DNA from: Verrucomicrobiia bacterium
GTDB lineage: Bacteria; Verrucomicrobiota; Verrucomicrobiia; Limisphaerales; UBA11358
NCBI GenBank assembly: GCA_035577265.1
Contig: DATLVR010000066.1
Span: 93,819-157,818, forward strand
Length of the DNA: 64,000 bases
Reading direction: 5' to 3'
The translations under genes and the position numbers were made by a program. The notes beneath the pieces are model-generated. The model did no database searches, was not told the DNA's origin, and saw only the letters and a list, made by a program, of their open reading frames with translations. Shown here one piece after another: positions 181 to 18,241 of this stretch. Within the stretch, counting starts at the first letter, position 1, and every line of letters starts with the position of its first letter.

Positions 181-905
181 GCGTGGGAAGAATGGTTTTG
201 CCAGAGCAGCATCGCAAAGTTGGTCGCGTTGAACAACGCATGCGCGGTGATGGGCGCCAGCAGGTTGTCCGTTCTTTGATAGAGCCATGTCAGGGCTAGG
301 GCGAAGGCAAACAGCGCCACGAACGCGGGCGCATTCATGTGGATCAAGGCGAACAGCGCGCTGACGCCGAACCAGGCGAGCTTGGGAAGGCCCAGCTGCC
401 GGACGAACGGAAACAGCACCCCGCGAAAAATAAATTCCTCCGCCACCGGTGCGATCACGATCGCGAACACGCCGAAATACGCGGTGGCCCAGCAGCTCTT
501 GGCCTGCAGTAACATCTCCACGGCGGCTTGATCCTCATGCGGCCAGCCAAGCTTCTCCGCAACGTAAATGGACCCGCCTTGCAGCAGCAGGACAACCGGC
601 AGCACGACCAGGATGAATGCAACGGCGGTGAGCAAAGCCGATTTTAACTTCGGCCCGCGCCAGCCGAAAGCCGCCAACCAGCCGGTCTGGTGCAGCCGTA
701 AAAACCCCCAGATTAGCAACCACCCCGCGCCTTGAAAGCTCAGGGTGGCGAACAGCAAATTTCCAAAATCCTCCTGTTGTTGAAAGCCGTTCACCCCCGC
801 CTTGTGCAGCAGCGCGGCAATGGTCAGGCCGAGGCAAAGACAGACGAATTGAGCCGCGACAAACAGCATCACGACCTCGGCCCGCCACGGTTTTTCCGAC
901 AACAT
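177..905 (-). CDS. CPBP family (CAAX/Abi-type) intramembrane metalloprotease
   Basis: Polytopic 242 aa ORF with EEFIFRGVLF and HALFN motifs typical of CPBP proteases. Confidence 0.8.
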   Translation of the reverse strand: MLSEKPWRAEVVMLFVAAQFVCLCLGLTIAALLHKAGVNGFQQQEDFGNLLFATLSFQGAGWLLIWGFLRLHQTGWLAAFGWRGPKLKSALLTAVAFILVVLPVVLLLQGGSIYVAEKLGWPHEDQAAVEMLLQAKSCWATAYFGVFAIVIAPVAEEFIFRGVLFPFVRQLGLPKLAWFGVSALFALIHMNAPAFVALFAFALALTWLYQRTDNLLAPITAHALFNATNFAMLLWQNHSSHA

Positions 906-1046
906 GATTTCAGTTTATCGCGGCGGCACGGCCGAGACGATGTAAAACGAACATCCAACATCGAACCACCAACGCGCAGCATCCCATGCCGTCACCCGCC
1001 ACCTTTCATTGGATGTTCGCTGTTGAAGGTTGGATGTTTCCCCTGC

Positions 1047-2438
1047 TCAAATCTCCACCACCTGTTTGTATTCCGGCACGATGACTTCCGCATTGGGTTT
1101 CATGGCGCGCAGGGTTTCCGCGTGAGCGAGGCACTGGGTTTCTTCGCCGTGGATGCAGACGATCTTCTTGATGTCGCCGGAAAGCTTCTCGACGTAGCGC
1201 TTCAATTCGTTTTTGTCCGCGTGGCCGGAATAGGTGTCGAGGGAAACGACTTTGGCACGGACCTCGTAAGGTTCGCCGAAAATGTTGACGGGCGTTTTGC
1301 CTGCGACAATCTGATTGCCCAGCGTGCCTTCCGCGCAGTAGCCGATGAACAGGGCCAGATTCTTCGCGTCACCGAGATTGTTCTTCAGATGATGCCGGAT
1401 GCGTCCACCTTCGCACATGCCCGATGCGCTGATGATGATCATCGCCTCCTTGCGGTCGTTCAGCTGCTTGGATTCCTCGGCGCTGCCGATGTAGGTAAGG
1501 TTGCCCATGCCGAAGGGATTTTCGTTATTGCACATCGTATCATTGATGGTGGGCCGCAACGACTCGGGATGCTTTTTGTAAATGTCGGTCGCCCGCGCGC
1601 TCAACGGACTGTCCACGAAGATCGGAACGCGCGGCAGTTTTCCCGCACAGGCCAGTTCATGCAGCACATATACGATCTGCTGCGTGCGCCCGACGGAAAA
1701 TGCGGGGATGATGATCTTGCCGTTTTGTTTGATGGTTTCACCGACGAGCTTGCCGACCAGTTCATCCGCATCGGGGCGTTGCTCGTGAACGCGCGCGGCG
1801 TAGGTGGATTCGATCTGGAGATAATCCACGTTCTCGACGGGAACCGGGTCGCGCAGCAGATCATCCCCGCCGCGGCCGATGTCGCCGGTGAACAGGTAAC
1901 GGAATTTCCGGCCGCCTTCCTGCACGTCCAGAATCACCTGCGCCGAACCGAGGATGTGGCCGGCATCGCGGAACGTGACGGTCATGCCGGGCACGGGTTG
2001 GAACGGGGTTTCATAGTCGTGGGCGACGAGCTGCCGCACGCATTTCTCGGCGTCGGGCGTGGTGTAAAGCGGCTCGACCGGCGGCTGATGTTTTTTGGCG
2101 CGCACTTTGGAAACGAAGATGGCGTCCTGTTCCTGGATGTGCGCCGAGTCCAGCAGCATGATCCCGCACAAATCACTGGTCGCCGACGTGCAATGGATCG
2201 GGCCGTCATAGGTTTTGCACAGGCTTGGCAGCTTGCCCGCGTGATCCAGATGCGAATGGCTCAGTATCACCGCGTCCACCTGCCTGGTATCGAACGGCAA
2301 AACTTTATTGAGCTGTTCCGATTCTTGGCGGTGGCCCTGGAACAGCCCGCATTCGAGCAAAAGTTTTTTACCGTTGACCTCGATGAGATACATCGAGCCC
2401 GTGGTGGTGCGGGCCGCGCCGAAGAAGTGGATTTTCAT
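1047..2438 (-). CDS. MBL-fold beta-CASP ribonuclease (RNase J/CPSF-like)
   Basis: HSHLDHAG metallo-beta-lactamase motif and beta-CASP-type C-terminal part. Start moved to MKIHFFGAARTTTGS (ATG 2436-2438). Confidence 0.8.
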   Translation of the reverse strand: MKIHFFGAARTTTGSMYLIEVNGKKLLLECGLFQGHRQESEQLNKVLPFDTRQVDAVILSHSHLDHAGKLPSLCKTYDGPIHCTSATSDLCGIMLLDSAHIQEQDAIFVSKVRAKKHQPPVEPLYTTPDAEKCVRQLVAHDYETPFQPVPGMTVTFRDAGHILGSAQVILDVQEGGRKFRYLFTGDIGRGGDDLLRDPVPVENVDYLQIESTYAARVHEQRPDADELVGKLVGETIKQNGKIIIPAFSVGRTQQIVYVLHELACAGKLPRVPIFVDSPLSARATDIYKKHPESLRPTINDTMCNNENPFGMGNLTYIGSAEESKQLNDRKEAMIIISASGMCEGGRIRHHLKNNLGDAKNLALFIGYCAEGTLGNQIVAGKTPVNIFGEPYEVRAKVVSLDTYSGHADKNELKRYVEKLSGDIKKIVCIHGEETQCLAHAETLRAMKPNAEVIVPEYKQVVEI

Positions 2439-2600
2439 GGCCGGAAAGAAAACGTGGCAGACACGGAAAGTCGAGCGCAATTCCCAATCTTCGGTTGTGT
2501 CGCAGAACAGCCGCAGCTGCGTGAAAATGCTGTGGCTGACGCTCCGCGCACAGCTGCGTTCCGTTCAAACCTCATCACCCGGACGGCCTGGTGCTGTCCG

Positions 2601-3641
2601 TCAGTGCCCCGCTTTATGATAAAACGCCACCAGTGCCGCCCCGATGGCCTGGGAGAGTTCGCCCAACTCCGCCGGCACGATCTTGATGGTGTCGCGTTGC
2701 GGCGCCCAGAGATACGGCACAGCCGTCTCCCGGATCACGCGCATGTAGCGTTCACGGAATTCCGGCGTGGTCGCTTCGTGATCCATCAATCCGCCGCCAA
2801 TGACAACAATGCCCGGATCAAAAGCCATCACCAGATTGGCGACGTGCAATCCCATGACGCGCGCCTGAAAATCAAAAATCTCCAGCGCCAGCGCATCGCC
2901 TTTCTGCGCCCGGGTGCGAAGCGACAGGACTTTTTCCTTGATGGGCGCGGCGGACTTGGCCAGTTCGTGCTCGGGATGACGCTTGATGAATTCCGCGAGC
3001 AATTGCGGCAGGCCGGAAATGGTCGTGTAAGCCTCCACGCAACCCCAGTCGCGTCCGCAGCCGCAACTGAACGGCTTGCCGGTGAGACCGAGGAGATGCA
3101 CCGCGGCCGCCATGTGACCAGCCTCCATTCCCGCGAGTGTGTCGCCATCGAGGCAGAGGCCGTCCGCGCCGACGAAAGCCGCGCCCAGTCCGGAACCGGG
3201 CATGAGCATCATGACGGTGGCCCGGGTGTTGCCGCGGGCGAGCCGTGCCTCGGCCACGCCACCATAGTTTCCGTCATTGCCGACCACGAGCGGCAGCACG
3301 CGACCGGCCTGTTTGGCGAGCGCGACGCTGTAATCGGTATAAACATCCCAGCCCGCGAAGCTGGCGGGCAGGTTTGGCGTCCGGCTGAAAACGCCATAGC
3401 GTTCATACGGTCCGGGAATCGCGAGGCCGACGCCGGCGACCTGGGACCATTCGAGATTATTTTGCGCGAGAAAGTCGCTGACGCCCGCGATCCAGGAAGC
3501 GATGACGGCGCCGCGCCCGTTTTCGGAATTGGTGGAACGCTGCAAAACCTTGTTCGAGACCGGCTCGCCGTTATCCCAGACCGCGCACAGTTTGGTGGTG
3601 GTCGCGCCGCTATCCGTGCCAATGAAGACTTTTTTACTCAT
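2601..3641 (-). CDS. ROK family sugar kinase/regulator-like protein
   Basis: N-terminal FIGTDSGATTTK ATPase motif and ROK zinc motif CGCGRDWGCVEAY. Start set at MSKKVFIG (ATG 3639-3641). Confidence 0.75.
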   Translation of the reverse strand: MSKKVFIGTDSGATTTKLCAVWDNGEPVSNKVLQRSTNSENGRGAVIASWIAGVSDFLAQNNLEWSQVAGVGLAIPGPYERYGVFSRTPNLPASFAGWDVYTDYSVALAKQAGRVLPLVVGNDGNYGGVAEARLARGNTRATVMMLMPGSGLGAAFVGADGLCLDGDTLAGMEAGHMAAAVHLLGLTGKPFSCGCGRDWGCVEAYTTISGLPQLLAEFIKRHPEHELAKSAAPIKEKVLSLRTRAQKGDALALEIFDFQARVMGLHVANLVMAFDPGIVVIGGGLMDHEATTPEFRERYMRVIRETAVPYLWAPQRDTIKIVPAELGELSQAIGAALVAFYHKAGH

Positions 3642-3727
3642 GATTAAGCCCGTTAAAATGCGGGCAGCGCAATCAAAGGCAAGAATTATTCGCGTTTCCC
3701 GGTTCAACCCGTTTAACTTTACGGCGG

Positions 3728-4765
3728 GTGACACAACACGAAACATTCTCAAATCTGCTCCGCGGTGACGCGCCTGTATTGTCGCTCGCGCCGATGCAGG
3801 ACGTGACCACCATCGATTTCATGCGCGTCGTCGCGCGTTACGGCGGGCCGGATGTTTACTGGACGGAATTCTTCCGCGTCCACGGCGATTCGCGGCCGGA
3901 AAAGTGGATTCTCGATTCCATCACCAAAAATCCCACCGGCCGGCCCGTCATCGCCCAGATGATCGGCAATGACATCCCCGCGCTCGTGCGCAACGCGAAA
4001 CTGCTCCAGCAATATCCCGTTGCCGCGATCGACCTGAACCTCGGCTGTCCCGCGCCGATCGTGTATCGCAAATGCGCGGGCGGCGGCCTGCTGCGCGAGC
4101 CGCAACGCATTGACGCCATCCTTGGTGCGCTGCGCGACGCAGTGAAAATTCCTTTCACGGTGAAAACGCGGCTTGGCTTTGAGTCACCCGCCGAGTTCGA
4201 CACGCTGCTGCCGGTTTTCGCGAAGCATTCGCTTGATTTGCTCACGGTCCACGCGCGCACCGTCGTGCAAATGTATCGGCCCGGCGTGCGCTACGACCTC
4301 ATTGCGCAGGCGGCGCGCGAGCTGCACTGCCCGGTGTTTGCCAACGGCAATGTCCACAGCGCGGCGCAGGCGCAGGCGTTGCTGGCCGAAACCGGCGTGC
4401 GTGGATTGATGATCGGGCGCGGCGCCATCCGCAATCCGTGGCTGTTCGACCAGGTCCGCGCGCAACTGCGAGGTGAAGAAATAAAACTGCCGACCGGGCG
4501 CGATGTGCTGGCCTACGTCCGCGAACTGTGGGAGAACGAAATCACGCCCGGCGTGAAGGAGTCGTCGCAGGTGATGCGCATGAAGAAATTCATGAACTTC
4601 ATCGGCGACGGCGTGGGTGAGAAATTCCTGCACGACATCCGCCGCGTGGCGACGACGGCGGATTTCTTTCGCGTGTGTGAAGCCTCTCTGAACCACGACG
4701 ACCCCATGCCGCTGGAGCCACAGGCGGTTTCGGAAACGCCTCTGGATTTGCCGGCGGCGTTTTAA
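3728..4765 (+). CDS. tRNA-dihydrouridine synthase (Dus family)
   Basis: LAPMQDVTTIDFMR N-terminus, DLNLGCP and TIM-barrel Dus-like sequence. GTG start. Confidence 0.8.
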   Translation: MTQHETFSNLLRGDAPVLSLAPMQDVTTIDFMRVVARYGGPDVYWTEFFRVHGDSRPEKWILDSITKNPTGRPVIAQMIGNDIPALVRNAKLLQQYPVAAIDLNLGCPAPIVYRKCAGGGLLREPQRIDAILGALRDAVKIPFTVKTRLGFESPAEFDTLLPVFAKHSLDLLTVHARTVVQMYRPGVRYDLIAQAARELHCPVFANGNVHSAAQAQALLAETGVRGLMIGRGAIRNPWLFDQVRAQLRGEEIKLPTGRDVLAYVRELWENEITPGVKESSQVMRMKKFMNFIGDGVGEKFLHDIRRVATTADFFRVCEASLNHDDPMPLEPQAVSETPLDLPAAF

Positions 4766-15280: not shown

Positions 15281-16654
15281 ATGACGTTGACTGAAAAGAT
15301 CCTCGCGCGCGCCGCCGGCAAAACCTCCGTGCAGGCCGGCGACAACATCTGGGTGAATGCCGACGTGCTCATGACGCACGATGTTTGCGGGCCGGGCACC
15401 ATCGGCGTGTTCAAACGCGAGTTTGGCAAGGAGGCGAAGGTCTGGGACAAGAACAAGATCGTCATCATTCCCGACCACTACATCTTCACCGCCGACTCCA
15501 AGTCCAACCGCAACGTGGACATCCTCCGCGATTTCTCGCGCGAGCAGGGCATCGAGTATTTCTACGACGTGATTGACGACTCAAACGGCCACTGGGTCTT
15601 CGACGCGTCCAAGGGCAACATGAAGAAGCAATACGGTTCGCGCTACGCGGGCGTCTGCCACACGGCGCTGCCCGCGAAAGGCCACACGCGCCCCGGCGAA
15701 ATTCTGTTCGGCACGGACTCGCACACCTGCATGGCGGGCGCGTTCAACCAGTTCGCCACCGGCATCGGCAACACCGACGCGGGTTTCGTGATGGGCACGG
15801 GCAAGCTGCTCATCAAGGTTCCCGAGACCATGCATTTCCGGCTCGAAGGCAAATTGCAGCCCGGCGTCATGGCCAAGGACATCATCCTCCATTGCATCGG
15901 CGAAATCGGTTTTGACGGCGCGACCTATCGCGCGATGCAGTTCGACGGCGAAGGCGCCTTGAACCTCTCGATTGACGACCGCATGACCATCGCCAACATG
16001 GCCATCGAGGCCGGCGGCAAGAACGCCATGTTTGAATTCGATTCGCGCACGGCGGAATACGTGGACGCGCGCGTGAAATTGAACGGCACCAAATCCACTT
16101 ACGAACCCGTCGCCCGTGACAAGAACGAGAAGTTCGTTTACGAACTCGTGGTGGACCTGAGCAAGCTCGAACCGACCGTCGCGTGCCACCCCGATCCGGG
16201 CCAGCGCAAGAAGGCGAAGGACATGGACGTGAAGCTGGACCGCGCCTACGTCGGTTCCTGCACCGGCGGCAAGACGAGCGACTTTGTGGAATTCGCCCAC
16301 ATCCTGCGCGGCAAAAAAGTGGTGATTGATACGTTCGGCGTGCCCGCGACCCCGGACATCGTGCGCGATTTGCAGTCCACCTACTGGGGCAACACCACCA
16401 TTTGGGACGTGCTGGTGAATGCGGGTGTGCAAATGACCGAGAACGCCGGCTGCGCCGCTTGCCTCGGCGGTCCGGTGGACACCTTCGGCCGCATCAACAA
16501 ATCCGGCATCAAATGCATCAGCGCGACGAACCGCAATTTCCCCGGCCGCATGGGCGACAAGGAATCGCAGGTGTTTCTCGCCTCGCCGATGACGGTGGCG
16601 GCCAGCGCCCTGACCGGCAAGGTCACCGACCCGCGCGAGTATTTGGGGAATTAA
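15281..16654 (+). CDS. leuC: 3-isopropylmalate (or homoaconitate) dehydratase large subunit, aconitase family
   Basis: MTLTEKILARAAGK N-terminus, Fe-S ligand Cys regions (DSHTC, GSCTGG, CAACLG). Confidence 0.85.
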   Translation: MTLTEKILARAAGKTSVQAGDNIWVNADVLMTHDVCGPGTIGVFKREFGKEAKVWDKNKIVIIPDHYIFTADSKSNRNVDILRDFSREQGIEYFYDVIDDSNGHWVFDASKGNMKKQYGSRYAGVCHTALPAKGHTRPGEILFGTDSHTCMAGAFNQFATGIGNTDAGFVMGTGKLLIKVPETMHFRLEGKLQPGVMAKDIILHCIGEIGFDGATYRAMQFDGEGALNLSIDDRMTIANMAIEAGGKNAMFEFDSRTAEYVDARVKLNGTKSTYEPVARDKNEKFVYELVVDLSKLEPTVACHPDPGQRKKAKDMDVKLDRAYVGSCTGGKTSDFVEFAHILRGKKVVIDTFGVPATPDIVRDLQSTYWGNTTIWDVLVNAGVQMTENAGCAACLGGPVDTFGRINKSGIKCISATNRNFPGRMGDKESQVFLASPMTVAASALTGKVTDPREYLGN

Positions 16655-16660
16655 GCCAAG

Positions 16661-16921
16661 ATGAAAGCCCGGAAGGTTCTTGAAAAAATTCTTTCCGGTT
16701 CGCGCAACATCCGGTTTGAGGATGCCTGCCGTCTGGCGAAGGCTTTGGGGTTTGAATTGGACAGAACGCGTGGCAGCCACCACATTTTCGTGCATGGCGA
16801 AGTGCCGGGGTTGCGGTTGAATTTGCAGCCCGACCGCAACGGCCAGATGAAAATGTATCAAGTCCGGCAGTTGCTGGACGCGATGGAAATGAACGGCTTG
16901 AGACTGGATGACGAAACATGA
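16661..16921 (+). CDS. hicA: HicA-family mRNA interferase toxin
   Basis: 86 aa with LGFELDRTRGSHHIF, the HicA core motif. Starts 6 nt after the leuC stop. Confidence 0.7.
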   Translation: MKARKVLEKILSGSRNIRFEDACRLAKALGFELDRTRGSHHIFVHGEVPGLRLNLQPDRNGQMKMYQVRQLLDAMEMNGLRLDDET

Positions 16922-17139
16922 AAACGCGCTATCACATCAACGTCTTTTACAGCGAGGAAGACAAGTGCTACATCGCCGACATTCCTGATTTGAAATACTG
17001 CTCGGCGCACGGAGCAACCCCGGAAGCAGCGATGCACGAAGTTTTGATTGCACAGGAACTGTGGTTGGAATCCATGCGGGCCACGCGCAAGCGCGCACCC
17101 GAAGCAAAATATCGCCCCGCAGTTTATGCGCTGGCTTGA
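16918..17139 (+). CDS. hicB: HicB-family antitoxin
   Basis: 73 aa, YHINVFYSEEDKCYIADIPDLKYCSAHGATPEAAMHEV fits the HicB N-domain. ATGA overlap with hicA. Confidence 0.7.
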   Translation: MKTRYHINVFYSEEDKCYIADIPDLKYCSAHGATPEAAMHEVLIAQELWLESMRATRKRAPEAKYRPAVYALA

Positions 17140-17161
17140 AACAAAACTGGCGACGGCTTCC

Positions 17162-17215
17162 GCCAGCGCCTTGACCGGCAAGGTCACCGACCCGCGCGAG
17201 TATTTGGGGAATTGA
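17162..17215 (+). repeat. displaced copy of the last 17 codons plus stop of leuC
   Basis: 52/54 nt identical to 16601-16654. The differences are ctg>ttg (synonymous) and taa>tga. Confidence 0.95.
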
Positions 17216-17249
17216 ATTCATCCGGCTTGCAGTTAAGGTGAATTGTCTT

Positions 17250-17630
17250 ATGAGCCAATTCCGAGTCAACGTGACCGTTGTGAATCCGAAACAGGAAGAG
17301 CTGGTGACCGCACCGGTTTCCGCGCTCGTTGACACCGGCTCCGAGCTCACCTGGCTGCCGGCGCAACTGCTCGCCGACATCGGCGTGACGCCGCGCCGCG
17401 AACGGCTGTTTGAGATGGCGAACAAGCAAGTCATCAAACGCCCCGTCGGTTACGGCATCATTCGCGCCGAGGGCTACGAGACCAACGACGAGATTGTCTT
17501 TGCCGAGCCGGGCGACATGACGCTGCTCGGGGTGCGCACGCTGGAAGGTTTCGGCGTGGTGGTGGACAACATTGGCAAAAGATTCACGGCCGCGCCGACT
17601 TTGGTGGTTTCGGTCCGGCTGGCAAAATAA
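17250..17630 (+). CDS. retropepsin-like (clan AA) aspartic protease
   Basis: ALVDTGSELTWLP catalytic DTGS motif. About 126 aa. Confidence 0.6.
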   Translation: MSQFRVNVTVVNPKQEELVTAPVSALVDTGSELTWLPAQLLADIGVTPRRERLFEMANKQVIKRPVGYGIIRAEGYETNDEIVFAEPGDMTLLGVRTLEGFGVVVDNIGKRFTAAPTLVVSVRLAK

Positions 17631-17672
17631 TCTGTGTCCGTCCTCACTTGCCATGAAGTTTCGTAGGAACGC

Positions 17673-18068
17673 ATGAGCAACGCCCTGGAAAATGTCCGTC
17701 GGCGGTTGGTCGGTGCGGCACAAGCTTTGGAAGGCGCCCATGTTCCTTACGCCGTTGCGGATGACAACGCCGTGGCTGCCTGGGTTTCGCGCGCAGATGA
17801 GGCGGCCGTGCGCAACCCGCAGGATGTGGACATTGTTTTGCGGCGAACGGATCTGTCTGCCGCCCGCAAAGCCTTGGAGGAAGCCGGGTTCGTTTATCGC
17901 CACGTGGCGAGCATTGACATGTTTCTCGACGGACCCGACGCGAAGGCGCGCGACGCGGTTCGCATTGTTTTCGCCGCCGAAAAAGTCCGCGCGGATTACG
18001 CCACGCTTGCAGGAATTGCTGGACAACCCGGAAGGTTGACCCGCCATGAACGTGCCCGCCACCCTTGA
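17673..18068 (+). CDS. nucleotidyltransferase-like protein, probably truncated
   Basis: ..PYAVADDNAVAAWV..QDVDIVL.. resembles the minimal NTase fold (AbiEii-like), but it is short with a degenerate G-G/S motif. Confidence 0.3.
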   Translation: MSNALENVRRRLVGAAQALEGAHVPYAVADDNAVAAWVSRADEAAVRNPQDVDIVLRRTDLSAARKALEEAGFVYRHVASIDMFLDGPDAKARDAVRIVFAAEKVRADYATLAGIAGQPGRLTRHERARHP

Positions 18069-18200
18069 ATCCCGCACCCTGGCCGTGTCCATCGCCCGCG
18101 AGGCGGAGGCGGTTTACCGGTTCGTTTCCAATCCCGCCAACCTGCCGCAATGGGCGACGGCGTTTTGCCAATCCATCCGCCAAGCTCGCTGTTACGAGAA
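18046..18200 (+). pseudogene. SRPBCC-like gene fragment
   Basis: First ~45 codons (SIAREAEAVYRFVSNPANLPQWATAF) look SRPBCC-like. The frame then degenerates and runs into the convergent lipoprotein gene. Confidence 0.3.
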
Positions 18201-18241
18201 CGTTGGCGCAAACTTGGGGAATAATTTTGATTCGTTCTCCC

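What the first reader, a model, noticed from the sequence alone, without database searches (positions are those of the whole stretch)
16601..17215. hicAB inserted precisely behind leuC, flanked by a duplicated leuC terminus
Seen: the last 17 codons plus stop of leuC (16601-16654) recur at 17162-17215 with 52/54 identity. The differences are ctg>ttg (synonymous) and taa>tga. The 507 nt between them hold only hicA, which starts 6 nt after the leuC stop, and hicB.

Inference: a TA cassette integrated at the very end of leuC by a mechanism that duplicates, or imports a second copy of, the target's 3' end. No leuD follows. Instead there is a run of small accessory or decayed genes: a retropepsin-like gene, an NTase fragment and an SRPBCC fragment.
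Basis: partly seen in the sequence, partly recalled or inferred. Interest (0 to 1): 0.6.

Follow-up and report, generated by a model that had tools for sequence, protein, structure and literature searches.

The report
hicAB cassette displacing leuC's end
A small toxin-antitoxin gene pair was inserted right behind the leucine-synthesis gene leuC, brought its own copy of that gene's last 54 bases and left the original gene end behind; across this soil Verrucomicrobiota genus the same spot has collected many unrelated small inserts in the same way with no recombinase gene found nearby, a known but poorly understood route of gene movement.

Summary
The last 54 nt of leuC (16601-16654) recur at 17162-17215 with 52/54 identity, and only hicA and hicB lie between.

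A strain about 98% identical (metagenome contig L265) has the empty site. There leuC runs straight into the retropepsin-like gene, and its gene end equals copy 2 at 54/54. So copy 2 is the displaced native end, and copy 1 came in with a 561-nt insert. Two further assemblies carry the filled site.

The layout is not specific to hicAB. In 155 loci of the genus, two hicAB types, a nucleotidyltransferase gene, a lipoprotein gene and a 3.6-kb carbamoyltransferase cluster each follow leuC and are followed by a leuC-end remnant. A thioredoxin-like gene shows a weaker one. Some are stacked.

The same hicB-to-remnant junction sits in front of three different downstream contexts. No integrase or resolvase gene is on the contig. 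Other junctions in the locus show microhomology.

Best reading (0.6): a recombinase-free "insertion with long target duplication", created by one illegitimate join and then spread by host homologous recombination, with the remnant as the right homology arm. A trans-acting site-specific recombinase is not excluded (0.22).

The scan has found this layout many times before on other DNA.

The parts
15281..16654 (+). leuC, the aconitase-family large subunit (457 aa). It is intact, and its last 54 nt are copy 1.
   Evidence: ORF. Pfam Aconitase E=6e-77. Orthologues at 74-98% identity were found in 40 of 41 relatives searched.
16601..16654 (+). Copy 1 of the leuC terminus (CTG ... TAA). This is the end now used by leuC and is inferred to have come in with the insert.
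   Evidence: It differs at 2 of 54 positions from the native end of the empty-site strain L265, while copy 2 is 54/54 identical to it.
16655..16660 (+). 6-nt spacer GCCAAG between the leuC stop and the hicA ATG.
   Evidence: Read directly from the sequence. The spacer varies from 6 to 10 nt in other carriers of hicAB type 1.
16661..16921 (+). hicA, a HicA-family toxin of 86 aa with a GSHH motif.
   Evidence: Pfam PF07927 at 39.1 bits, cut-off 27. It is 91-97% identical to the HicA found behind leuC in G023, G156 and L032. dN/dS is about 0.1.
16918..17139 (+). hicB, a short HicB-like antitoxin of 73 aa with the N-terminal domain only. It overlaps hicA by 4 nt (ATGA).
   Evidence: Pfam HicB_lk_antitox (17.7 bits) and UPF0150 (20.1 bits) are both below their cut-offs. 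Weak PDB profile hits go to TTHA1756 and HicB 6g1c/6g1n. There are 2571 homologues, and several sources name them HicB family antitoxin.
17140..17161 (+). Right end of the insert: AACAAAACTGGCGACGGCTTCC. It is a diverged remnant of leuC positions about -70 to -55. With the next bases it forms a hairpin (17146-17167) that looks like a terminator on the minus strand.
   Evidence: It aligns with the hicB-to-remnant junctions of L280 and G023. The hairpin comes from the terminator scan.
17162..17215 (+). Copy 2 of the leuC terminus (TTG ... TGA). This is the displaced native gene end and is now non-coding.
   Evidence: It is 54/54 identical to the leuC end of the empty-site contig L265 and contiguous with the same downstream flank.
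17250..17630 (+). Retropepsin-like aspartyl protease gene (126 aa). It is the native neighbour of leuC in this species.
   Evidence: Pfam gag-asp_proteas at 29.7 bits, cut-off 28.2. It directly follows leuC in L265 and in L277/L278.
17634..18039 (+). Nucleotidyltransferase pseudogene. It has an in-frame TAG at 17664-17666 and an internal deletion, so only residues 1-126 of 196 align.
   Evidence: tblastn against the intact 196-aa gene of relatives. Full-length relatives score 30.4 bits on Pfam NTP_transf_5, just under the 31.2 cut-off. The 5' region was compared with G003 and L277.
18040..18045 (+). Trace (CCCGCC) of an older leuC-end remnant after the NTase stop. This is an inference.
   Evidence: In G158, G151 and G095 the same NTase end reads GGTTGA-CCCGCGCGAGTAT...GGGGAATT(A/G)A. 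In the window only about 6 nt survive.
18046..18185 (+). 5' fragment of an SRPBCC / Polyketide_cyc2-like gene.
   Evidence: It is homologous to the 135-aa gene of L265 up to 18185 and then diverges.

Best explanation
**What it is.** The locus is a filled allele of a hypervariable slot directly behind leuC. A 561-nt segment was inserted. It consists of a replacement copy of the last ~54 nt of leuC, hicA, hicB and ~22 nt of junction. leuC now ends in imported sequence, and its original end (copy 2) sits downstream as a fossil, still joined to the native neighbour, the retropepsin-like gene.

**How it most likely works.** No dedicated recombinase is involved.

1. *Origin (inferred).* The unit leuC-end / hicAB / leuC remnant arose once. 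Incoming DNA was anchored by homology in the conserved leuC gene, and its other end was joined illegitimately inside the last ~70 nt of leuC. This could have been homology-facilitated illegitimate recombination, or single-crossover integration of a re-circularised fragment. Either route gives a long target duplication.
2. *Spread (partly shown).* The unit carries leuC homology on both sides: the leuC body on the left and the 55-70-nt remnant on the right. Host homologous recombination can therefore place it behind leuC in any related genome, whatever lies downstream.
3. *Loss (inferred).* Recombination between the two copies would delete the unit cleanly and leave no scar.

Other cargoes have used the same route, which gives nested arrays with the newest insert next to leuC. 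HicAB itself is an ordinary type II toxin-antitoxin pair under purifying selection. Its addiction property may favour retention, but that was not tested.
For: **Empty and filled alleles within one species**
- L265 has an identical LeuC protein and ~98% nucleotide identity. It lacks the insert and is collinear with the window after removal of 16601-17161, with 11 mismatches in 500 and no gap.
- L266 and L267, from other samples, carry the filled site.

**Copy 2 looks native and copy 1 imported**
- Copy 2 equals the native allele at 54/54, and copy 1 differs at 2 sites.
- In G023, copy 1 carries a rare AGG codon, while copy 2 has the CGC found in its closest relatives.

**One junction, three downstream contexts**
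- The hicB-to-remnant junction (TGA-ACAA..-CGATGACCGTGGCC) is shared by G000, G023 and L280-L283.
- The DNA after the remnant differs: a retropepsin-like gene, a thioredoxin-like gene on the opposite strand, and a lipoprotein gene.
- In each case that DNA is what follows native leuC in genomes without hicAB.

**Several unrelated cargoes share the layout**
- They are hicAB types 1 and 2, an NTase gene, a lipoprotein gene carrying a 45-nt fragment of a neighbouring kinase gene, and a 3.6-kb carbamoyltransferase cluster. A thioredoxin-like gene has a weaker remnant (nhmmer E=0.06).
- Remnant left edges range from about -23 to -72.
- G158 and G115 show arrays.

**Microhomology-type junctions in the same locus**
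- GTTGA lies at the short NTase remnants.
- GCTGGC(C) repeats lie at the hicB deletion in G000.
- TTGCA.AGGAA.TG lies at the hicB/NTase deletion in L265.
- ATGGCC/GTGGCC lie at the hicAB junctions.

**No recombinase found, and frequent recombination**
- No Phage_integrase or Resolvase match lies on contig C66, and no integrase-like cluster lies within 2.5 kb in 155 loci.
- Outside the leuC locus, the leuC-tail 22-mer occurs in only one place in 163 genomes.
- leuC is mosaic between conspecific strains, which shows frequent homologous recombination.
- ComEC and DprA are present.

**Precedent in the literature**
- RM units have been found inserted with repeats longer than 30 bp that often span a start or stop codon, with no mobility gene, mostly in competent species (PMC2853133).
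- HFIR junctions show 3-10 bp microhomology. A circular molecule with truncated homology gave 109-950 bp duplications by single crossover (PMC3240628).
Against: - The long remnants of five cargo types all begin within about 10 nt of each other (-62 to -72), and all end at the stop codon. A defined att core would also explain this.
- A right arm of only 55-70 nt is short for RecA-dependent exchange.
- In G000 both informative sites place the exchange in the leftmost 9 nt of the repeat. That fits a fixed crossover as well as it fits an illegitimate join.
- SNPs upstream of -66 could not be polarised to show an imported tract extending into leuC.
- hicAB type 1 has diverged roughly in step with leuC (dS 0.41-0.84 against 0.72-0.91). 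Much of its distribution could therefore be vertical inheritance with losses.
- Natural competence of these uncultured bacteria is unknown.
Confidence: 0.6

Rival explanations
1. The last ~65 nt of leuC is the attachment site of a site-specific recombinase encoded elsewhere. The small inserts would then be non-autonomous, CIME-like cassettes. Each would carry an attP with a replacement leuC end and would integrate in tandem by accretion, with the newest next to leuC.
For: - The long remnants of five cargo types start within -62 to -72, and all end at the stop codon.
- The upstream copy carries foreign alleles and the downstream copy native ones, as attL and attR would.
- Tandem arrays are found.
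- The same junction lies in three downstream contexts.
- The cassettes are very compact, with 0-18 nt before and 0-12 nt after the cargo ORFs.
Against: - No tyrosine or serine recombinase gene lies on the contig or within 2.5 kb in 155 loci.
- The cargoes share no cassette-side sequence.
- The repeat shows no dyad symmetry or hairpin; DNA folding z-scores are -0.5 to +0.4.
- Some cassettes carry arbitrary pieces of neighbouring chromosomal genes, such as 45 nt of a kinase 3' end.
- Outside the leuC locus, a leuC-end copy turned up at only one place in 163 genomes, and no integrase was seen beside it.
Confidence: 0.22
2. A single ancient insertion of hicAB with a leuC-end duplication has been inherited vertically. 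Gene conversion from the functional leuC end keeps copy 2 similar, and unrelated turnover of downstream genes creates the different contexts. No horizontal movement of the unit is involved.
For: - The divergence of hicAB type 1 tracks leuC divergence in rank order.
- The junction has a single origin.
Against: - A conspecific strain has a clean empty site.
- Only 3 of 163 species representatives carry type 1, and much closer relatives lack it, including G003 at 98% LeuC identity.
- hicA dS between G000 and L032 is 0.16, against 0.51 for leuC.
- Copy 2 matches the native allele of the empty strain rather than copy 1 of its own genome. This is the opposite of what conversion from copy 1 would give.
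Confidence: 0.1
3. A transposase-like or casposase-like enzyme made a staggered cut about 55-70 nt apart. Both copies would then be true target-site duplications, and nothing was imported.
For: The topology (repeat, insert, repeat, with the newest unit next to the gene) resembles staggered-cut integration.
Against: - The insert has no terminal inverted repeats and no transposase.
- The two copies differ at the sites where the native allele is known, and in G023 by a two-base codon change.
- No known element makes target duplications of this length (own knowledge).
Confidence: 0.04
4. The arrangement is an assembly artefact or a chimera at a 54-nt repeat in a metagenome-assembled genome.
For: - The genome is a MAG.
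- Many MAGs of the genus break contigs near the leuC end.
Against: - Independent assemblies from two other samples reproduce the arrangement across both copies.
- The same layout is present in another MAG, G023, and in four further samples, L280-L283.
Confidence: 0.01

Closest known systems
Insertion with long target duplication of restriction-modification gene units (Nobusato et al. 2000, Gene 259:99, cited from PMC2853133; Furuta et al. 2010, NAR, PMC2853133)
   Same: A small selfish gene unit with no mobility gene is flanked by direct repeats longer than 30 bp. Those repeats occur once in the empty site of a related genome and often span a start or stop codon. The mechanism is unknown.
   Different: The cargo here is a toxin-antitoxin pair, and in relatives an NTase gene, a lipoprotein gene and a biosynthetic cluster, not RM genes. 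One site has been used by several cargoes, giving nested arrays. There is also evidence that the repeat itself serves as a portable homology arm.
Homology-facilitated illegitimate recombination, and single-crossover integration of re-circularised fragments (described in PMC3240628; original HFIR work in S. pneumoniae, A. baylyi and P. stutzeri cited there)
   Same: There is one homologous anchor plus one illegitimate join at a short GC-rich microhomology. Circular molecules with truncated homology gave duplications of 109-950 bp of the target.
   Different: Those were laboratory events, and HFIR there usually produced deletions. Here the outcome is a 54-70-nt duplication fixed in natural populations and then propagated. 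The process itself was not observed.
CIMEs and ICE accretion at the 3' end of housekeeping genes, such as ICESt1/CIME at fda of Streptococcus thermophilus (own knowledge; reviewed in PMC5704250, found but not read)
   Same: Non-autonomous elements are bounded by copies of a gene's 3' end. They accumulate in tandem, and the gene end is restored by element DNA.
   Different: CIMEs are defined by att sites of a known integrase family and derive from ICEs or IMEs. No integrase or ICE is linked to this site, and the inserts are single genes of 0.5-0.7 kb.
Neisseria minimal mobile elements
   Same: Alternative cassettes lie between conserved flanking genes and are exchanged by transformation and homologous recombination without mobility genes.
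   Different: Minimal mobile elements are not described as leaving duplicated gene ends. Here the duplication supplies the right-hand homology.
Integron cassette arrays
   Same: The cassettes are compact and apparently promoterless, they are stacked at one point with the newest nearest, and TA cassettes are common cargo.
   Different: There is no intI and no attC hairpin. The repeat is a copy of the target gene's end rather than a cassette-specific recombination site.
HicAB type II toxin-antitoxin systems
   Same: A HicA toxin domain with the conserved GSHH motif is followed by a small HicB-like gene that overlaps it by 4 nt.
   Different: HicB here has 73 aa and lacks a DNA-binding domain. 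Its Pfam scores are below the cut-off.

Membership tests
Insertion with long target duplication (criteria of Furuta et al. 2010) | The insert is flanked by direct repeats longer than 30 bp. | tested here: met
   54 nt at 52/54 identity, or 62 nt at 92%.
Insertion with long target duplication (criteria of Furuta et al. 2010) | A related genome has an empty site in which the repeated sequence occurs once. | tested here: met
   L265 is conspecific and is collinear with the window after removal of 561 nt.
Insertion with long target duplication (criteria of Furuta et al. 2010) | No mobility gene lies in or beside the insert, and the insert is shorter than 20 kb. | tested here: met
   The insert holds only hicA and hicB. 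No PF00589 or PF00239 match lies on contig C66.
Insertion with long target duplication (criteria of Furuta et al. 2010) | The cargo is a restriction-modification unit. | tested here: not met
   The cargo is hicAB. This criterion defined that survey rather than the mechanism.
HicA toxin family | The Pfam HicA_toxin domain scores above the gathering score, and the conserved histidine motif is present. | tested here: met
   39.1 bits against a cut-off of 27. G38-S39-H40-H41 are invariant in the alignment.
HicB antitoxin family | A HicB N-terminal (RNase H-like) domain lies next to hicA. | tested here: inconclusive
   PF15919 scores 17.7 bits and PF21748 scores 20.1 bits, both below cut-off. PDB profile hits to HicB are weak, E 0.05-0.5. 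Homologues are named HicB by NCBI and JGI, and the gene overlaps hicA by 4 nt. No structure was predicted.
Site-specific integrative element or CIME | A cognate integrase is linked to the site in at least some genomes. | tested here: not met
   None was seen within 2.5 kb of leuC in 155 loci, and none lies on contig C66. A recombinase acting in trans cannot be excluded.
Site-specific integrative element or CIME | The crossover core is fixed, so repeat boundaries are identical among elements. | tested here: inconclusive
   Long remnants begin at -62 to -72 and short ones at about -23 to -25. The short ones are explained by secondary deletions.
Integron cassette | An attC imperfect palindrome and an adjacent intI/attI are present. 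| tested here: not met
   Both strands of both copies fold no better than shuffled sequence, with z from -0.5 to +0.4. No integrase is nearby.
IS or transposon | Terminal inverted repeats, a transposase and a short target duplication are present. | tested here: not met
   No inverted repeats bound the insert, and it contains no transposase ORF.

The most novel reading that the evidence does not exclude
The end of leuC could be a dedicated chromosomal cassette platform in this Verrucomicrobiota lineage. An as yet unrecognised trans-acting recombinase would use a core near -62 to -55 of leuC to capture and stack promoterless cassettes, each carrying a replacement gene end. This would be an integron-like system without intI or attC. 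Similar platforms could then exist at the many other gene ends (rel, hflX, phoU, priA, uvrB and others) where the scan has seen the same layout.
Probability: 0.15. Interest if true: 0.85.

Novelty: new member of a known kind. Interest (0 to 1): 0.5.

Why it matters
Toxin-antitoxin pairs and other small accessory or defence genes are highly mobile, yet they usually carry no mobility gene. How they move is still largely unexplained.

This locus gives a natural series for studying that question:
- empty and filled alleles within one species;
- one cassette junction in three genomic contexts;
- several unrelated cargoes at the same gene end across 163 species.

The series supports a simple model that can be tested. 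A first illegitimate event gives a cassette homology to a conserved housekeeping gene on both sides. After that, ordinary recombination can carry it into any relative and can also remove it without a scar.

If the model is general, duplicated gene ends become a practical marker for finding recently moved cargo in genomes and metagenomes. They would also explain contig breaks at such sites in MAGs.

Tried and rejected
- **Metagenome scan.** A scan with a species-level leuC pattern returned only the contig already known.
- **Imported tract upstream of -66.** I looked for one between the window and L265. The SNP cluster at -142 to -67 exists, but three of its four sites are L265-specific derived alleles, so it is not informative.
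- **Early reading of the L265 hicB fragment.** I first read it as a secondary patch insertion. L277/L278 showed that it is the remnant of a resident orphan hicB.
- **Early reading of the G000 junction.** I first took the junction at -54 with a hairpin as independent of G023's. Alignment with L280 shows that it is the same junction after divergence and a 3-nt deletion.
- **attC-like or terminator role of the repeat.** Rejected by folding.
- **Retropepsin-like gene as a regular HicB partner.** Five of its family homologues elsewhere have no hicB next to them.
- **Search for an integrase.** ORF clustering of the 2.5 kb downstream of leuC in 155 loci found none.
- **leuC-end copies elsewhere.** A search of 163 genomes found one, on G115 contig C38. 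It follows the same carbamoyltransferase cluster, and the contig ends 1.5 kb upstream, so its context is open.
Full report
**1. The observation**

- leuC (15281-16654) ends in ...GCCAGCGCCCTGACCGGCAAGGTCACCGACCCGCGCGAGTATTTGGGGAATTAA.
- The same 54 nt recur at 17162-17215 with two changes, CTG>TTG and TAA>TGA.
- The repeat finder extends the pair to 62 nt at 92%, with a start-to-start spacing of 561 nt.
- A 41-mer and a 22-mer of the repeat occur exactly twice in the window, and none of 100 shuffles reached two matches.
- Between the copies lie hicA and hicB. hicA (16661-16921) scores 39.1 bits on Pfam HicA_toxin against a cut-off of 27, and its ATG is 6 nt after the leuC stop. hicB (16918-17139) overlaps hicA by 4 nt and gives only sub-threshold HicB_lk_antitox and UPF0150 matches.
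- Downstream follow a retropepsin-like gene, a broken nucleotidyltransferase (NTase) gene and an SRPBCC fragment.

**2. The arrangement is real and polymorphic within the species**

A look-up of the exact LeuC protein returned a 217-kb JGI metagenome contig (L265). It is about 98% identical to the window in nucleotides.
- In L265, leuC is followed directly by the retropepsin-like gene.
- Its leuC end is TTG...TGA. This is identical to copy 2 at 54/54 and contiguous with the same flank.
- Removing window 16601-17161 (561 nt) gives a sequence collinear with L265. There are 11 mismatches in 500 nt and no gap.

Two contigs from other samples carry the filled site.
- L267 (1242 nt) spans leuC, hicAB, copy 2 and the retropepsin start, with both copies in the same state.
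- L266 is 100% identical to the window over 1927 nt.

So copy 2 is the displaced native gene end. Copy 1 differs from the native allele at both variable sites, which suggests it came with the insert. hicAB has 53.7% G+C, against 61% for leuC and the retropepsin-like gene.

**3. The wider picture in the genus**

The window lies in a Verrucomicrobiota MAG. Record titles of related loci name Verrucomicrobiota or Verrucomicrobiae, and one homologue is labelled Limisphaerales. Its family in the genome collection is a single genus of 163 species representatives. I fetched the leuC end plus 1.5-2.5 kb downstream for 155 loci, most from this genus and about ten from other families of the order.

*leuD.* None of these loci has leuD behind leuC. 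In the window's own genome a 196-aa Aconitase_C frame lies on another contig. The missing leuD is therefore normal for the lineage.

*The region behind leuC is a mosaic of a few modules.* Their nesting order is stable:
- hicAB, when present, is next to leuC;
- a 196-aa NTase gene comes next;
- then a lipoprotein gene of about 190 aa;
- then the conserved convergent genes, a thioredoxin-like gene and a histidine kinase.

*Both hicAB types sit behind leuC.* The two types share about 41-44% HicA identity.
- Type 1 is in G000, G023 and G156.
- Type 2 is in G005, G047, G082, G095 and G128, in G167 with a frameshifted hicA, and in G028, which belongs to another family.
- Every strong match to these two types in the family lies behind leuC.

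*Remnants of the leuC end are not tied to hicAB.* Local alignment and an nhmmer profile of the leuC tail found them after several cargoes:

| Cargo | Genomes |
|---|---|
| hicAB type 1 | G000, G023 |
| hicAB type 2 | G028, G050 |
| NTase gene | G064, G017, G158, G151, G095 |
| Lipoprotein gene, with a 45-nt piece of the kinase gene's 3' end | G145, G160, G157, G073 |
| Thioredoxin-like gene (weaker, E=0.06) | G106 |
| 3.6-kb carbamoyltransferase cluster | G115 |

- G158 has leuC, NTase, remnant, lipoprotein, remnant. G115 has leuC, the cluster, a remnant, and then the lipoprotein gene.
- What follows a remnant is what follows native leuC in other genomes.
- Long remnants begin at -62 to -72 from the stop and end at the stop codon. 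Short ones, at about -23 to -25, can be explained by later deletions at microhomologies such as GTTGA.

**4. One junction, several contexts**

HicB homologues led to further contigs.
- L280-L283, from four samples, have leuC, hicAB type 1, a well-preserved 70-nt remnant, the lipoprotein gene and then the kinase gene.
- Their hicB-to-remnant junction (TGA-ACAACTG-CCGATGACCGTGGCC) matches G023's (TGA-ACAAATGT-CGATGACCGTGGCC).
- With a 3-nt deletion and a few substitutions that create a hairpin at 17146-17167, it also matches G000's.

The junction therefore arose once. Yet it precedes three different downstream contexts, and in G000 the right part of the remnant is identical to the native allele of its own species. 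This is what is expected if the unit is joined to each host by an exchange inside the remnant.

**5. History of this particular locus**

- L277 and L278 belong to another species, with 85% leuC nucleotide identity. They read leuC, retropepsin-like gene, full-length orphan hicB, NTase, and in L277 then the lipoprotein gene.
- L265 keeps the first 148 nt of that resident hicB, fused to the NTase 3' end at the microhomology TTGCA.AGGAA.TG.
- G000 lost the resident hicB between two GCTGGC(C) repeats at the ends of the retropepsin-like gene and hicB.
- The ancestor of G000 and L265 was therefore leuC, retropepsin-like gene, hicB, NTase.
- The G000 lineage later received a complete hicAB unit at the leuC end.
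- leuC itself is mosaic between these strains. Some stretches have no difference while others differ by 5-8%.

**6. Mechanism**

No tyrosine or serine recombinase gene lies on the contig, and none was seen within 2.5 kb in 155 loci. The repeat has no unusual secondary structure. In all 163 genomes the leuC-tail 22-mer occurs only at the leuC locus, with one exception on a second contig of G115. That copy follows the same carbamoyltransferase cluster.

The features that point to recombination by host functions are:
- microhomology junctions elsewhere in the locus;
- arbitrary pieces of neighbouring genes inside cassettes;
- remnant edges that vary between cargoes;
- evidence of frequent homologous exchange in leuC.

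I propose one illegitimate join that created the unit, followed by homologous recombination that spreads and removes it. ComEC and DprA are present, but competence is unknown.

Published precedent exists.
- RM units have been found inserted with long target duplications and no mobility gene, with repeats that often span start or stop codons (PMC2853133).
- HFIR junctions show 3-10 bp microhomology, and circular molecules with truncated homology produced 109-950 bp duplications by single crossover (PMC3240628).

*What argues for a trans-acting site-specific recombinase instead.* Long remnant edges cluster within about 10 nt. The cassettes are very compact. The exchange in G000 lies in the leftmost 9 nt of the repeat. 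I cannot exclude this rival and give it 0.22.

*Vertical inheritance.* Divergence of hicAB type 1 roughly tracks leuC. hicA dS against leuC dS is 0.16 against 0.51 for G000-L032, 0.41 against 0.72 for G000-G023, and 0.84 against 0.91 for G000-G156. Part of the distribution is therefore vertical with losses. dN/dS of 0.1-0.2 indicates functional genes.

**7. Comparison with what is known, and novelty**

The finding meets the structural criteria of "insertion with long target duplication" except for the cargo type. It does not meet the tested criteria of an integron or a transposon. For a site-specific integrative element, no linked integrase was found and the fixed-core test was inconclusive.

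Earlier notes of this scan describe the same layout at many other gene ends and in other phyla, including rel, hflX, coaBC, phoU, aspS, ftsZ, priA, uvrB, and leuC in Poribacteria. Those notes led me to the RM literature, which I then read myself. A search of the paper library found no description of this insertion mode for toxin-antitoxin modules.

This case adds three things:
- a conspecific empty site that identifies which copy is native;
- a genus-wide series with several cargoes and arrays;
- a shared junction in three contexts.

I rate it a new member of a known kind, with moderate interest.

**8. Limits**

- All genomes are MAGs or metagenome contigs.
- No reads could be inspected.
- No species tree was built.
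- The direction of some events rests on parsimony.
- Two informative sites in 54 nt cannot prove import over duplication in G000.

Noticed in passing
L277:2114-3320 and L278 (other species); L265:5409-5960: In related genomes the retropepsin-like gene sits exactly where hicA would be, directly in front of a full-length orphan hicB and the NTase gene. The toxin gene has been replaced while the antitoxin was kept. L265 keeps a 54-aa chimeric ORF made of the first 49 HicB residues fused to the NTase C-terminus.
   Followed up: partly
L218 (G050), 5-872 nt after the leuC stop: A PIN-domain gene and a 70-aa partner occupy the place of hicA type 2. They are followed by an intact hicB type 2 and a 23-nt leuC remnant. 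This looks like one TA module partly overwritten by another.
   Followed up: no
L263 (G115:C4) 400-4114 and L262 (G115:C38): A 3.6-kb cluster lies between leuC and a 64-nt leuC remnant. It holds a carbamoyltransferase gene, small membrane-protein genes and a gene for a small protein that I took, unchecked, to be DUF5989-like. A 74%-identical second copy of the cluster lies on another contig. It has a better preserved remnant and the same junction, and it is not preceded by leuC within the 1.5 kb available.
   Followed up: partly
window 15281-16654 compared with L265 and L267: leuC is a recombination mosaic between conspecific strains. L265 shows no difference from the window in the first 630 nt, but 15 differences between -613 and -418. 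All 22 differences between L267 and the window lie between -505 and -304.
   Followed up: partly
G042:C54, G075:C24, G122:C42, G168:C347: Several MAGs of the genus have contigs that start about 125-135 nt before the leuC tail motif, while the rest of leuC ends another contig. Assemblies tend to break at this locus, as expected for a strain-variable site with a short repeat.
   Followed up: no
window 17146-17167: The inverted repeat CTGGCG-ACGGCTTC-CGCCAG lies just after hicB. It is preceded on the plus strand by GAAACAAAA, so it reads as a terminator only on the minus strand. It was created by divergence of the left part of the leuC remnant. Any function is unknown.
   Followed up: no
window 18205-18227: The sequence GTTGGCGCAAACTTGGGGAATAA inside the SRPBCC fragment loosely resembles the leuC tail (GTTGACCCGCGCGAGTATTTGGGGAATTAA). 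It may be another decayed remnant or chance.
   Followed up: no
window 17216-17249; L280:2799-2830; after native leuC in L231, L233 and L179: A conserved leader (A/T)TTC..CCGGCTTG(C/T)A(A/G)(C/T)T follows both native leuC ends and remnants. It precedes either the lipoprotein gene or the retropepsin-like gene. This suggests that the retropepsin-like gene took over the lipoprotein gene's leader.
   Followed up: no
L265:6106-7151: The empty-site strain has about 1 kb that is absent from the window. It holds the rest of the SRPBCC gene and IS630-type HTH fragments. The window has a deletion there, or L265 an insertion, at 18185.
   Followed up: no
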